A stretch of DNA of 32,510 nucleotides from an archaeon (lineage in GTDB: Archaea; Iainarchaeota; Iainarchaeia; Iainarchaeales; Iainarchaeaceae). The position numbers and the translations under genes were made by a program. The stretch's first letter is position 1, and every line of letters begins with the position of its first letter. The notes beneath the pieces were generated by a model. It was not told where the DNA came from. It searched no databases and saw only the letters and a program-made list of their open reading frames with translations. The stretch covers positions 1-32,510 of the forward strand of contig SBBR01000106.1 of NCBI GenBank assembly GCA_005239615.1, read 5' to 3'. Shown here piece by piece: positions 17,954 through 19,337 of the stretch.

Positions 17954-18302
17954 CTTTTTCTTTTCTTAAGCCTTTCGTTTCTTTTTCTTTTCGTCAACGT
18001 TTTCTTTTTCTTTCCCAAAGAAAAAGAAAAGGTTGCTGGGGTGTCAGAGCGGCTATGTACCCGCCTGCAGTAACCCTTTTCTTTCTCCTGTGGAGAAAGA
18101 AAAGGGTCCTTGCAGAATCGAAAGATTCTGCGAGGCCAAGCAAACCTAAAGGTTTGCCGGGTAGCGGAAAAGAAAGGTGTTTGCGCCTATGGCGCAGGGT
18201 TCTTTTTCTTTTTCGCAAAGGTTTTTCTTTTCCTTGCAGAGCAAGGCTCTGCGAGGCCTCGTCCCGAAAGGGACAAGGTCTTCCCAAGAAAAAGAAAAAG
18301 GT
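17954..18302. repeat. Cluster of about 10 copies, in both orientations, of a 12-15-nt CTTTTTCTTTT / AAAAGAAAAAG motif flanking and filling the tRNA-Cys intron
   Basis: Pyrimidine copies lie near 17954, 17977, 18000, 18074, 18199 and 18220. Purine copies lie near 18018, 18092, 18166 and 18286. 18000-18013 and 18017-18030 form a perfect 14-bp hairpin with a CCC loop just 5' of the tRNA. Confidence 0.85.
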
Positions 18303-18345
18303 TTGCGGTGAGCGGGCTAGGAGGGTTCGACTCCCTCCCCCAGCT
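18035..18345 (+). tRNA. tRNA-Cys(GCA) interrupted by a 240-nt intron at the canonical 37/38 position. Exons are 18035..18070 and 18311..18345; no CCA is encoded.
   Basis: Acceptor GCTGGGG/CCCCAGC with discriminator T73. D-loop AGCGGCTA. Anticodon stem CCCGC/GCGGG with loop CT-GCA-G|..|A. Variable loop CTAG. T-arm GAGGG-TTCGACT-CCCTC. The BHB has a 4-bp helix CTGC(18065-68)/GCGG(18305-08) flanked by 3-nt bulges AG|T and TG|A. The D-stem is weak (TCAG/TGTA). Confidence 0.8.
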
Positions 18346-18407
18346 TGTATTACTCACGCTACAGTATTATTCACCCATTTTTAAATAATTATGAGTAATA
18401 CAATAGC

Positions 18408-19337
18408 ATGGCTTACATGGCAAAATTCAAAAGGAATGGCAAAATCTATTTCTATCTCGTTGAAAACATCCCGCTCGGCGGAGGCAAAAGAAGGCAGATA
18501 AGGGAGTACATTGGCGACAAGCAGCCATCGGAATCAAAGCTCCAAATCCTGATTGCAGAGTTCGAAAAAAAAGTGGAAAAAGAAACCGTCAAGCTCCATG
18601 GCCGCCACTACCTCACAAATGAAGAAATAAAGGAAATTGATGAAATCAATGCGCGATTCTGGCAAAGATACAAAAAATTAAATCCGACTGTACAGGAACA
18701 ATTCGACCAGAACTTCGTAATGGCTTTCGTTTACAACACCAACTCAATAGAAGGGTCCACTCTAAGCCCAAAAGAGGTCGAACCGCTTCTCAGCGAGAAC
18801 ATCGCTCCGAACAAGCCGCTTGATGACGTGCTCGAAGCAAAGGCTGCGCAAAAAACTCTGAATTTTGCCAAAGAGTACAAAGGAGAACTCACGCAGGAAT
18901 TTATAGCGCAAATCCACGAAATGTACTTCAAGGACACCAAACCTATGATAGCCGGAAAATACAAGACTCACCAAAACATGGCCAGGGGCTCGGACTTCGA
19001 GACAACACTGCCTCACTTAGTAATAACAGACATGAAAAACTTCATCAAAGAATACCCTCAGCAAAAAAATGGACTCCACCCACTTGAGCTGTCAGCATGG
19101 GCACACTGGAAACTTATGAAAATACACCCATTCCAGGTCGGAAACGGAAGGACGGCTAGAATACTGATGAACTACATCCTGCACATCAACGGCTATGCGA
19201 TGATAGACATCAAAACCAAGGAGAAACAGCAATACTTCAACGCGCTGGAGAAATGCCACTACAACAATAATGCAAAGGCTTTGGCAACAAGACTAGTCAG
19301 GCGATTCAGGAAACAATACAAAAATGCGCTGGACTAA
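18408..19337 (+). CDS. fic: Fic-domain protein (AMPylase-type), class II with internal inhibitory helix
   Basis: Fic motif HPFQVGNGRTARILMNY. The upstream motif TNSIEG fits the inhibitory (S/T)xxxE(G/N). The N-terminus KFKRNGKIYFYLVENIPLGGGKRRQIREYIG is typical of archaeal Fic proteins. Confidence 0.85.
   Translation: MAYMAKFKRNGKIYFYLVENIPLGGGKRRQIREYIGDKQPSESKLQILIAEFEKKVEKETVKLHGRHYLTNEEIKEIDEINARFWQRYKKLNPTVQEQFDQNFVMAFVYNTNSIEGSTLSPKEVEPLLSENIAPNKPLDDVLEAKAAQKTLNFAKEYKGELTQEFIAQIHEMYFKDTKPMIAGKYKTHQNMARGSDFETTLPHLVITDMKNFIKEYPQQKNGLHPLELSAWAHWKLMKIHPFQVGNGRTARILMNYILHINGYAMIDIKTKEKQQYFNALEKCHYNNNAKALATRLVRRFRKQYKNALD

What the first reader, a model, noticed from the sequence alone, without database searches (positions are those of the whole stretch)
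18071..18310. The intron is a modular, highly structured RNA: two paralogous hairpins with compensatory changes plus GNRA-capped stems
Two 28/25-nt hairpins share identical bases but differ at the apex while keeping pairing. The first is CCTTGCAGAATC-GAAA-GATTCTGCGAGG (18108-18135). The second is CCTTGCAGAGC-AAG-GCTCTGCGAGG (18232-18256). Each has the same T-G wobble and is followed by CC. Further stems are CCCTTTTCTTTCTCC/GGAGAAAGAAAAGGG (18073-18088 with 18092-18106) and GCAAACC-TAAA-GGTTTGC (18140-18157). There are also TGCGCC-TAT-GGCGCA (18182-18196) and GTCCC-GAAA-GGGAC (18261-18274). The intron 5' end (18072-18088) can alternatively pair with its 3' end (18287-18304), which would clamp the splice sites together. 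An internal duplication with preserved pairing argues for selection on structure, meaning a functional RNA or protein-binding platform rather than junk. I recognise no known RNA family.
Basis: seen in the sequence. Interest (0 to 1): 0.7.

Follow-up and report, generated by a model that had tools for sequence, protein, structure and literature searches.

The report
Repeat-filled long intron in tRNA-Cys
The 240-base stretch is an ordinary protein-spliced intron in the cysteine tRNA gene of a tiny DPANN archaeon, made unusually long by copies of a previously undescribed hairpin-pair repeat that is scattered through related genomes, so its neat structure belongs to the repeat family and not to a job done by this intron.

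Summary
Positions 18071-18310 are a 240-nt intron at the canonical 37/38 site of a tRNA-Cys(GCA) gene (exons 18035-18070 and 18311-18345). The host is a Diapherotrites/Iainarchaeota (DPANN) archaeon. The intron folds far better than shuffled sequence (z = -10.8), and its ends can form a bulge-helix-bulge splice motif.

The two "paralogous hairpins" are not an internal duplication. Each is the first half of a roughly 55-nt hairpin doublet, [CCUUG-CAGA..UCUG-CGAGG][CCUCG-variable stem-CAAGG]. I found about 16 further distinct copies of this doublet in Diapherotrites contigs. They lie in a tRNA-Leu intron (antisense), beside tRNA, SRP RNA and rRNA genes, and between ribosomal-protein genes. Covariation across copies is strong. 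Each hairpin keeps a pyrimidine·purine mismatch at the same position.

Orthologous tRNA-Cys genes in three related genomes have no intron, or an unrelated 81-nt intron with the same ends. No Rfam family matches.

Best reading: a canonical archaeal tRNA intron used as a safe harbour by a new REPIN-like dispersed repeat. A dedicated RNA function for the doublet is not excluded.

The parts
17994..18034 (+). Leader hairpin of pyrimidine and purine tracts (CAACGTTTTCTTTTTCTTT / AAAGAAAAAGAAAAGGTTG). It abuts the tRNA 5' end and is preceded by two more pyrimidine tracts (17954-17992).
   Evidence: Inverted repeat I4, 95% complementary. The same hairpin abuts the tRNA-Cys 5' end in L006, L302 and L304, and also tRNA-Glu in L264 and tRNA-Thr in L284.
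18035..18070 (+). tRNA-Cys(GCA) exon 1 (positions 1-37; anticodon at 18067-18069).
   Evidence: ARAGORN with intron search. The spliced sequence is called tRNA-Cys(gca). The intronless orthologues align across the junction.
18071..18310 (+). 240-nt intron at the canonical 37/38 position.
   Evidence: No Pfam hit for the chance ORFs across it. No C or D boxes.
18065..18075 (+). 5' half of the bulge-helix-bulge motif. It comprises the central-helix strand C32-C35 (18065-18068), the bulge A36 G37 | U (18069-18071, cut after 18070) and the intron-side helix AACC (18072-18075).
   Evidence: Hand pairing checked base by base. The fold of a mini-substrate gives anticodon stem, 3-nt bulge, 4-5 bp helix, 2-3-nt bulge and helix.
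18300..18316 (+). 3' half of the bulge-helix-bulge motif. It comprises GGUU(U) (18300-18304), the central-helix strand GCGG (18305-18308), the bulge U G | A38 (18309-18311, cut after 18310) and the anticodon-stem 3' strand (18312-18316).
   Evidence: The same intron ends (CAAC ... GGTTGCAGTG) occur in the unrelated 81-nt intron of L304.
18073..18106 (+). Pyrimidine/purine-tract hairpin CCCTTTTCTTTCTCC-TGT-GGAGAAAGAAAAGGG. Its 5' arm can pair instead with 18287-18304.
   Evidence: Inverted repeats I1 and I3; minimum-free-energy fold.
18108..18161 (+). Hairpin-doublet unit 1. Hairpin 1 is 18108-18135 (CCTTG-CAGAATC-GAAA-GATTCTG-CGAGG). Hairpin 2 is 18136-18161 (CCAA-GCAAACC-TAAA-GGTTTGC-CGGG, with a degenerate base).
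   Evidence: Covariance model R1 scores 64.7 bits, E = 9e-16. The nearest relative is the copy in L301.
18166..18214 (+). Long hairpin in which a purine tract (18166-18179) pairs with a pyrimidine tract (18200-18214), capped by TGCGCC-TAT-GGCGCA (18182-18196).
   Evidence: Minimum-free-energy fold; inverted repeats I6 and I22. The segment GCGCAGGGTTCTTTTTCTTTTTCGC resembles the array next to the unit in L267.
18232..18278 (+). Hairpin-doublet unit 2. Hairpin 1 is 18232-18256 (CCTTG-CAGAGC-AAG-GCTCTG-CGAGG). Hairpin 2 is 18257-18278 (CCTCG-TCCC-GAAA-GGGA-CAAGG).
   Evidence: Model R1 scores 57.3 bits, E = 1e-13. The nearest relative is the copy in L291. An almost identical single hairpin lies in the L304 leader.
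18281..18304 (+). Purine tract TTCCCAAGAAAAAGAAAAAGGTT(T) at the intron 3' end. It is a near copy of the leader end at 18012-18034.
   Evidence: Direct-repeat family D3, 83%. The identical 23-mer precedes a tRNA 3' part in L010.
18311..18345 (+). tRNA-Cys exon 2 (positions 38-73; 4-nt variable loop CTAG; discriminator U73 at 18345).

Best explanation
The region is a canonical archaeal tRNA intron. It sits between nucleotides 37 and 38 of tRNA-Cys(GCA) in a Diapherotrites (DPANN) archaeon.

Inferred splicing route:
- The pre-tRNA is transcribed through the intron.
- The pyrimidine-tract 5' end and the purine-tract 3' end of the intron zip together.
- This presents a bulge-helix-bulge motif: the anticodon stem, the bulge UG|A, the 4-bp helix CUGC/GCGG, the bulge AG|U, and the helix AAC(C)/(G)GUU.
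- The splicing endonuclease cuts after 18070 and after 18310, and RNA ligase joins the exons.

The intron is unusually long because its interior, which splicing removes whatever it contains, has been filled with lineage-specific repeat elements. These are pyrimidine/purine-tract hairpins and two copies of a roughly 55-nt hairpin doublet.

Each hairpin of the doublet has the base CCU-Y-G...C-R-AGG, with a conserved Y·R mismatch (U·G in the first hairpin, C·A in the second). The second hairpin base is an inverted copy of the first. The unit therefore looks alike on both strands, as a bacterial REPIN (inverted REP doublet) does.

I infer that the doublet spreads or is maintained as a hairpin-recognised dispersed repeat. 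The compensatory changes reflect that family-wide constraint, not a function of the tRNA-Cys intron.

Shown: the intron position, the splice-motif compatibility, the dispersed family, the covariation and the variability at the orthologous locus. Inferred: the splicing itself, the mode of spread, and the absence of an intron-specific role.
For: - **Host.** Topoisomerase VI subunits are encoded in the window, and homologues of the neighbouring genes are named Candidatus Diapherotrites.
- **Intron and tRNA.** The motif was checked by explicit pairing and by mini-substrate folds. By hand pairing of the sequence, the 135-nt tRNA-Leu(CAA) intron of L279 has the same layout (CUCA/UGAG helix, bulges AG|C and AG|A).
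- **Orthologous loci.** The loci share the gene order Metallophos-HAD-HAD-(DHFR)-tRNA-Cys. L006-L009 and L302/L303 are intronless. L304 has an 81-nt intron of unrelated interior but the same ends, CAAC...GGTTGCAGTG against TAAC...GGTTTGCGGTG.
- **Dispersed family.** A strict-pattern scan of metagenome contigs gave 47 loci. About 22 carry the full doublet, roughly 15 of them distinct after removing duplicate contigs. Together with the two window copies and the Iainarchaeum copy L031, that makes 18 copies analysed.
- **Positions of copies.**
  - Antisense in the tRNA-Leu intron (L279).
  - Antisense downstream of tRNA-Ala (L274), SRP RNA (L267) and 23S rRNA (L256).
  - Sense upstream of tRNA-Thr (L284).
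  - Sense between ribosomal-protein genes in L031, L268 and L255, read from the sequences.
  - Upstream of nucS and beside other unrelated genes.
- **Covariation.** The stem of hairpin 2 is 5-8 bp and fully paired in 18 of 18 copies, with 2-3 pair types at each of the first five positions; shuffled partners pair 62% on average, 83% at most. In one search, 7 pairs change on both sides and the covariation score is 0.239 against 0.097 in shuffles (0 of 500 reach it) and at most 0.063 when partners are slid. The pair at columns 37-57 is never a standard pair, in 17 of 17 copies.
- **Symmetry.** Model R1 hits every copy on both strands.
- **The two window copies** are not each other's closest relatives.
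- **Insertion signature.** A 40-nt direct repeat (93% identical) flanks the copy at the rpl22/rps3 junction in L031.
Against: - No expression or splicing data exist, and the splicing endonuclease gene was not looked for.
- The minimum-free-energy fold of the mini-substrate gives a 5-bp helix with a 2-nt 5' bulge. The textbook 4-bp/3-nt register needs a one-pair shift.
- The intron sense strand contains T5 runs (18202-18206, 18208-18212, 18219-18223). From general knowledge of archaeal RNA polymerase, such runs can act as terminators, which would hinder read-through.
- No transposase or other mobilising gene was found near any copy, and no copy was found in viral contigs.
- Copy number looks modest: about one per selected contig and only two in this 32.5-kb window.
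- Between co-directional protein genes the unit was in the sense orientation in 6 of 6 cases. The 20 nt at the base of hairpin 1 and the flanks CCUC/AAGG are much more conserved than a merely hairpin-forming element needs. Both points favour an RNA-level or protein-binding role.
- The invariance of hairpin 1 is partly imposed by the search pattern.
Confidence: 0.65

Rival explanations
1. The hairpin doublet is a host-functional RNA motif: a binding platform for a dimeric RNA-binding protein that reads two coaxially stacked hairpins, each with a Y·R wobble three pairs from its base. The tRNA-Cys intron, perhaps as a stable circular excised RNA, is one of several vehicles that express it. Others are intercistronic regions of ribosomal-protein operons and 5' regions of genes.
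For: - The hairpin bases and the mismatch position are strongly conserved while stems and loops vary freely.
- U·G and C·A(+) wobble pairs are isosteric (established RNA structural knowledge), so both hairpins would present the same geometry.
- Copies between co-directional protein genes are all in the sense orientation: L031, L268, L255, L258, L288 and L278.
- In one subgroup (L031, L255, L265, L268, L278) a covarying closing stem (CUAUC/GAUAG, CCAUC/GAUGG, GCGCCA/UGGCGC) and a conserved joining strand GAGCNCAAGCGA enclose the doublet.
Against: - Copies are antisense to the host transcript in the tRNA-Leu intron and downstream of tRNA-Ala, SRP RNA and 23S rRNA.
- The doublet is absent from three of four orthologous tRNA-Cys loci.
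- No Rfam family matches and no partner protein has been identified.
- The near symmetry of the unit weakens any argument from orientation.
Confidence: 0.2
2. The gene works like a split tRNA arranged in cis. Transcription of the 5' half stops at the T-runs inside the 'intron'. The 3' half is transcribed separately behind a copy of the leader. The two RNAs then pair through the pyrimidine and purine tracts and are joined by the endonuclease and ligase in trans, as in Nanoarchaeum equitans.
For: - The last 23 nt of the intron repeat the 23 nt that precede exon 1 (83%, family D3).
- The 5' end of the intron is complementary to its 3' end (I3).
- T5 runs lie on the sense strand within the intron (sequence).
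- In L279 the tRNA-Leu intron starts with the same hairpin-plus-unit arrangement that follows the 3' end of tRNA-Ala in L274.
Against: - The halves are adjacent and co-oriented, so cis splicing is the simpler route.
- No TATA-like box of the kind seen before neighbouring genes (TTTTTAAATA before the Fic gene) lies ahead of exon 2.
- T-runs also lie in the leader upstream of exon 1 in the window and in the intronless orthologues, so they are evidently tolerated near this gene.
- There are no expression data.
Confidence: 0.06
3. The intron is a self-splicing or guide-RNA-bearing intron: group I, or an intron that carries a C/D box guide like the archaeal tRNA-Trp intron.
For: Its length of 240 nt is in the range of small group I introns found in tRNA genes, and its last base is G (18310).
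Against: - There is no group I hit even at E <= 10 in an 801-nt search.
- The 5' exon ends in G, not U.
- The host is an archaeon.
- There is no C box or D box.
- The interior is explained base for base by the repeat units.
Confidence: 0.01

Closest known systems
Canonical archaeal tRNA introns cut at a bulge-helix-bulge motif by the splicing endonuclease (EndA)
   Same: The position is 37/38. The anticodon stem is followed by a 3-nt bulge, a 4-bp helix formed by anticodon-loop bases with the intron 3' end, a second bulge and an intron-side helix. The spliced product is a normal cloverleaf with the Cys identity marks GCA and U73.
   Different: At 240 nt it is, to my knowledge, several times the usual length of a few tens of nucleotides. 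The interior is built from dispersed repeat units. Presence and content differ among orthologous genes of related genomes.
Bacterial REP elements and REPINs/BIMEs (inverted doublets of imperfect palindromes mobilised by RAYT transposases; PMC3116915, PMC2817692)
   Same: These are short imperfect palindromes with a conserved mismatch, arranged as an inverted doublet. They are extragenic and dispersed, occur in both orientations, and keep their hairpins through compensatory changes.
   Different: The host is archaeal. There is no GTAG or CGTC tag. The copy number looks low. No RAYT-like gene has been identified. Some copies lie inside tRNA introns. The two arms differ: one carries a conserved CAGA/UCUG and the other is free.
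Intron gain and transposition among tRNA genes in Thermoproteales (related introns in different tRNAs; recalled from the literature, not read here)
   Same: Related sequence blocks occur in the introns of different tRNAs of one lineage: tRNA-Cys here, and tRNA-Leu and tRNA-Ser in L279.
   Different: Here the shared blocks also occur outside introns and in the opposite orientation. What moves is therefore a repeat unit, not the intron as such.
LOOT RNA (Rfam RF03000)
   Same: It is a row of hairpins, including one with consensus cguaccccGAAAgggguacg that resembles hairpin 2. The match is weak: 18184-18293, 26.1 bits, E = 0.009.
   Different: The score is far below the gathering score of 46.4, and none of six other loci with the unit gives any LOOT match at E <= 1. 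I treat it as chance.

Membership tests
Archaeal bulge-helix-bulge tRNA intron | Interrupts a tRNA gene; removal restores a standard cloverleaf. | tested here: met
   ARAGORN with intron search finds a tRNA at 18035-18345 with a 240-nt intron. Joining 18070 to 18311 gives tRNA-Cys(gca). The intronless orthologues read CCTGCAGAGCG across the junction.
Archaeal bulge-helix-bulge tRNA intron | Two 3-nt bulges on opposite strands, separated by a 4-bp helix and flanked by helices, with the cut sites in the bulges. | tested here: met
   The explicit pairs 18065-18068/18305-18308, 18060-18064/18312-18316 and 18072-18073/18303-18304 are all standard pairs. The minimum-free-energy fold of the mini-substrate shows the 3' 3-nt bulge and a 5' bulge of 2 nt; the 3-nt register differs by one A-U pair. 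This is in silico only.
Archaeal bulge-helix-bulge tRNA intron | The host encodes the splicing endonuclease and the intron is excised in vivo. | not tested
   The endonuclease gene was not searched for, and no transcript data are available. The host is archaeal.
Group I intron | Conserved P3-P8 catalytic core; U at the end of the 5' exon paired to G in P1. | tested here: not met
   No Intron_gpI match at E <= 10. The 5' exon ends in G (18070).
C/D box guide RNA inside a tRNA intron (tRNA-Trp type) | C box RUGAUGA and D box CUGA. | tested here: not met
   Neither motif occurs in 18071-18310.
LOOT RNA (RF03000) | Score at or above the Rfam gathering score. | tested here: not met
   26.1 bits against 46.4. 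No match in six other loci that carry the unit.
REP / REPIN | Imperfect palindromes in an inverted doublet, extragenic and dispersed. | tested here: met
   The base of hairpin 2 (CCTCG...CAAGG) is the reverse complement of the base of hairpin 1 (CCTTG...CGAGG). Every copy hits model R1 on both strands. All copies are intergenic or intronic.
REP / REPIN | High copy number per genome and a cognate RAYT (Y1 transposase). | not testable with these tools
   No complete genome of the lineage could be scanned. Flanking genes examined include no transposase. There are two copies in this 32.5-kb window and about one per selected contig.
REP / REPIN | Conserved GTAG or CGTC tag at one end (PMC3733652). 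| tested here: not met
   Units begin with CCTTG and end with CAAGG. No such tag is conserved in the flanks.
MITE | Terminal inverted repeats and a short target-site duplication. | tested here: inconclusive
   The only terminal inverted repeat is CCTTG/CAAGG. One copy (L031) is flanked by a 40-nt direct repeat, which is much longer than a usual target duplication. Four other copies show no flanking duplication of this kind.
Split tRNA (Nanoarchaeum type) | The halves are encoded at separate loci with their own promoters. | tested here: not met
   Both halves are adjacent and co-oriented, 240 nt apart. Separate transcription could not be tested.

The most novel reading that the evidence does not exclude
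The hairpin doublet is the first REPIN-like element described in archaea. In this reading it is a symmetric pair of hairpins, each marked by a Y·R wobble and read by a dimeric protein (a transposase or a host factor). It colonises the spliced-out interior of tRNA introns and the flanks of stable-RNA genes. That gives a concrete mechanism by which archaeal tRNA introns grow and diversify, and possibly by which their excised circles acquire protein-binding functions.
Probability: 0.3. Interest if true: 0.65.

Novelty: new variant of a known kind. Interest (0 to 1): 0.5.

Why it matters
Archaeal tRNA introns are usually short, and how they are gained and enlarged is still debated. Here one orthologous tRNA-Cys site is seen in three states in related genomes: no intron, an 81-nt intron, and a 240-nt intron. 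The large version is visibly assembled from units of a dispersed repeat. This is direct comparative evidence that an intron interior acts as a safe harbour for repeat elements.

The repeat itself is a symmetric hairpin doublet with a conserved wobble-type mismatch. It has no Rfam family and is found so far only in Diapherotrites/Iainarchaeota, a poorly studied DPANN lineage. It is a well-defined target for finding its binding protein or mobilising enzyme.

The case also has a practical side. Default tRNA finders miss this gene, and an intron-aware run mis-assigns it as Ser(GCT).

Tried and rejected
- **Known RNA families.** Rfam gave nothing at gathering thresholds. The permissive scan gave only a weak LOOT match plus chance microRNA-like hits on the low-complexity hairpins. 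LOOT was rejected because other copies do not match it.
- **Group I and C/D box introns.** Both rejected.
- **Protein coding in the intron.** Three chance ORFs have no Pfam hit at E <= 0.1.
- **Loose pattern scan.** My first collection scan used two 8-mers with a 4-30 nt gap. Only L031 (Candidatus Iainarchaeum andersonii) was a true copy. The same loose pattern, the strict pattern and a 14-mer found no true unit in viral contigs.
- **Alternative four-way-junction fold.** In this fold CCUUG pairs with CAAGG and CGAGG with CCUCG. I rejected it because double changes at the fifth pair of hairpin 2 (G-C to A-U in L256 and L274, to C-G in L264) and CCG/CGG in L267 keep the two-hairpin fold and break the alternative.
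- **ARAGORN register.** ARAGORN's intron register (Ser GCT) was rejected. The tRNA has a 4-nt variable loop and U73, and the intronless orthologues read GCA.
- **Synteny through the Fic gene.** This was unreliable because that gene sits on a cassette found in several contexts. Synteny through the DHFR-like gene worked.
- **Second copy in L255.** A supposed second copy at 2414-2430 lies inside a coding region and is a coincidence.
Full report
**What is there**

The window encodes topoisomerase VI A and B subunits, a membrane pyrophosphatase and other housekeeping genes. The closest homologues of the genes flanking the finding are from Candidatus Diapherotrites, a DPANN archaeon.

Default ARAGORN and Rfam find no RNA gene. 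ARAGORN run locally with intron search finds a tRNA at 18035-18345 interrupted by 240 nt. It places the junction two bases too far 5' and so calls Ser(GCT). Three points fix the real junction:
- the 4-nt variable loop;
- the discriminator U73;
- three intronless orthologues that read CCTGCAGAGCG across the junction.

The intron is therefore 18071-18310, between nucleotides 37 and 38 of tRNA-Cys(GCA). The joined exons are called tRNA-Cys(gca).

Both modules match a strict pattern that never occurs in shuffles. Every listed stem is recovered by the repeat finder or the minimum-free-energy fold. The fold energy of the precursor is 10.8 standard deviations below that of shuffled sequence.

The splice sites fit a bulge-helix-bulge motif, with these parts in order:
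- the anticodon stem, 18060-18064 with 18312-18316;
- the bulge U18309 G18310 | A18311;
- a central helix, C32 U33 G34 C35 with G18305-G18308;
- the bulge A36 G37 | U18071;

All these pairs are standard. A mini-substrate folds into this arrangement with a one-pair ambiguity at the 5' bulge. There are no C/D boxes, no group I signal and no recognisable ORF.

**The modules are a dispersed family, not an internal duplication**

A loose pattern scan of genome contigs was mostly noise, but it hit Candidatus Iainarchaeum andersonii (L031). There the module is followed by CC-TCGTACCC-TTGT-GGGTAC-AAGG. This is plainly the counterpart of the window's CC-TCGTCCC-GAAA-GGGAC-AAGG.

A strict scan of metagenome contigs returned 47 loci. 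About 22 of them carry the complete two-hairpin unit, roughly 15 distinct after removing duplicate contigs.

The unit is [CCUUG-CAGA-stem-loop-stem-UCUG-CGAGG][CCUCG-variable stem-loop-CAAGG]. The following support the fold:
- In 18 copies the second stem is 5-8 bp and always fully paired, with two or three pair types at each of the first five positions. Shuffled partners pair 62% on average and 83% at most.
- On the 17-sequence alignment, seven pairs show changes on both sides, against 3.7 in shuffles.
- The covariation score is 0.239, against 0.097 in shuffles (0 of 500 reach it) and at most 0.063 when partners are slid.
- One position is never a standard pair in 17 of 17 copies. It is C·A in hairpin 2 and sits at the same place as the invariant U·G of hairpin 1.

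The base of hairpin 2 is the reverse complement of the base of hairpin 1, so the unit is pseudo-symmetric. The covariance model built from it hits every copy on both strands.

An alternative fold pairing CCUUG with CAAGG is excluded, because the double changes in L256, L274, L264 and L267 break it.

Over the parts not fixed by the search pattern, window copy 1 is closest to the copy in L301 (74%) and copy 2 to that in L291 (79%). The two window copies are only 50% alike.

**Where the copies sit**

| Locus | Position of the unit | Orientation |
|---|---|---|
| L279 | inside a 135-nt canonical intron of tRNA-Leu(CAA) | antisense |
| L274 | 35 nt downstream of tRNA-Ala | antisense |
| L267 | 28 nt downstream of SRP RNA | antisense |
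| L256 | downstream of 23S rRNA | antisense |
| L284 | upstream of tRNA-Thr | sense |
| L264 | upstream of tRNA-Glu | antisense |
| L031 | between rpl22 and rps3, flanked by a 40-nt direct repeat | sense |
| L268 | between rpl23 and rpl2 | sense |
| L255 | between rps28e and rpl24e | sense |
| L265 | upstream of nucS | sense |

Other copies lie beside further unrelated genes. No copy overlaps a credible ORF, no transposase is adjacent, and none is in viral contigs.

The copies next to stable-RNA genes share the window's pyrimidine/purine-tract hairpins. The same leader hairpin abuts the 5' end of tRNA-Cys in four genomes and of other tRNAs. A second long intron in L279 (tRNA-Ser, 99 nt) also contains such a hairpin.

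**The orthologous locus varies**

The gene order Metallophos-HAD-HAD-(DHFR-like)-tRNA-Cys is conserved.
- L006-L009 have an intronless tRNA-Cys (Fic neighbour 84% identical).
- L302/L303 also have an intronless tRNA-Cys (DHFR-like protein 68% identical).
- L304 has an 81-nt intron at the same site (DHFR-like protein 66% identical). Its interior is unrelated, but its ends match: CAAC...GGTTGCAGTG against TAAC...GGTTTGCGGTG.

The splice-motif ends are therefore shared, while the interior has been replaced or expanded. The leader of L304 carries a single hairpin, CCTCGTCCCAAAAGGGACAAGG, almost identical to hairpin 2 of window copy 2.

**Interpretation**

The best-supported account is a canonical, endonuclease-spliced tRNA intron whose disposable interior has been colonised by a lineage-specific hairpin repeat. 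However, the selection acts on a repeat family that also lives outside introns and on either strand, and the intron is dispensable at this locus.

The closest analogy for the unit is a bacterial REPIN, an inverted doublet of imperfect palindromes recognised as hairpins. The defining tag, the high copy number and the cognate transposase are unmet or untestable here, so I do not file it as a member.

The main rival is that the doublet is a genuine RNA motif bound by a dimeric protein. Four observations keep this alive:
- the extreme conservation of the hairpin bases;
- the isosteric U·G and C·A positions;
- the sense orientation in all six cases between co-directional protein genes;
- a covarying closing stem in the operon copies.

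A minor rival, prompted by T5 runs inside the intron and by the duplicated leader before exon 2, is separate transcription of the two halves followed by trans-splicing. This cannot be tested without transcripts.

**Novelty and score**

The intron type is known. New, as far as Rfam and my literature searches show, are three things:
- its length and repeat-built interior;
- the hairpin-doublet family itself;
- the three-state variation at one orthologous site.

I rate it a new variant of a known kind, with interest 0.5.

Noticed in passing
window 18333-18410; L001 295-330; L011 2425-2470; L304 1013-1954: The last ~13 nt of tRNA-Cys (CCCTCYCCCAGCT) followed by TTGTATTACTCA, and an inverted copy TGAGTAATACAA just before the Fic gene, travel with the Fic gene. 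In L001 and L011 the tRNA fragment precedes Fic without any tRNA, and L011 also has an integrase and three Fic genes. In L304 a phage-type integrase sits next to tRNA-Cys in place of Fic. The tRNA-Cys 3' end looks like an integration site for a Fic-carrying cassette.
   Followed up: partly
window 17954-18034; L267 4680-4850; L274 3890-4000: Arrays of 12-17-nt pyrimidine (or, on the other strand, purine) tracts such as CTTTTTCTTTT are repeated every ~25-30 nt beside stable-RNA genes. In the window the tract at 17978-17992 (TTTCTTTTTCTTTTC) is the parallel, position-by-position complement of the purine tract at 18017-18031, which already pairs with 18000-18013. An intramolecular triplex is therefore conceivable (compare PMC4666352). 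The tracts may also simply be bidirectional oligo-T terminators.
   Followed up: no
L031 5801-6006: In Candidatus Iainarchaeum andersonii the hairpin-doublet element sits exactly at the overlapping stop/start of rpl22 and rps3. It is flanked by a 40-nt direct repeat (93% identical), so both the stop of rpl22 and the start context of rps3 are preserved. This duplication is unusually long for an insertion.
   Followed up: partly
L010 1-175: A contig end carries pyrimidine/purine-tract hairpins and the exact 23-mer TTCCCAAGAAAAAGAAAAAGGTT. It is followed by what looks like only the 3' part of another tRNA (GGGAATGAGCTTGAGACCCGGGTTCGAATCCCGGCAGGGGCGA) upstream of a Fic gene. This could be the 3' exon of another long-intron tRNA, a split-tRNA half or an integration remnant. 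The contig ends too early to tell.
   Followed up: no
L255 2130-2250; L265 6190-6330 (minus strand); L268 9480-9620 (minus strand); L278 1420-1560: A subgroup of the doublet copies is enclosed by a covarying closing stem and a conserved strand GAGCNCAAGCGA. It is followed by a further hairpin with an (G)AGCAG-type loop, just upstream of the next gene's start codon. This may be a larger structured element in its own right, such as an intercistronic regulator or stabiliser.
   Followed up: no
L279 6775-6959 and 10099-10319: One related contig carries two more long canonical-type tRNA introns: tRNA-Ser(GCT), 99 nt, and tRNA-Leu(CAA), 135 nt. Both contain the pyrimidine/purine-tract hairpins, so long repeat-filled tRNA introns appear to be a trait of this lineage.
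   Followed up: partly
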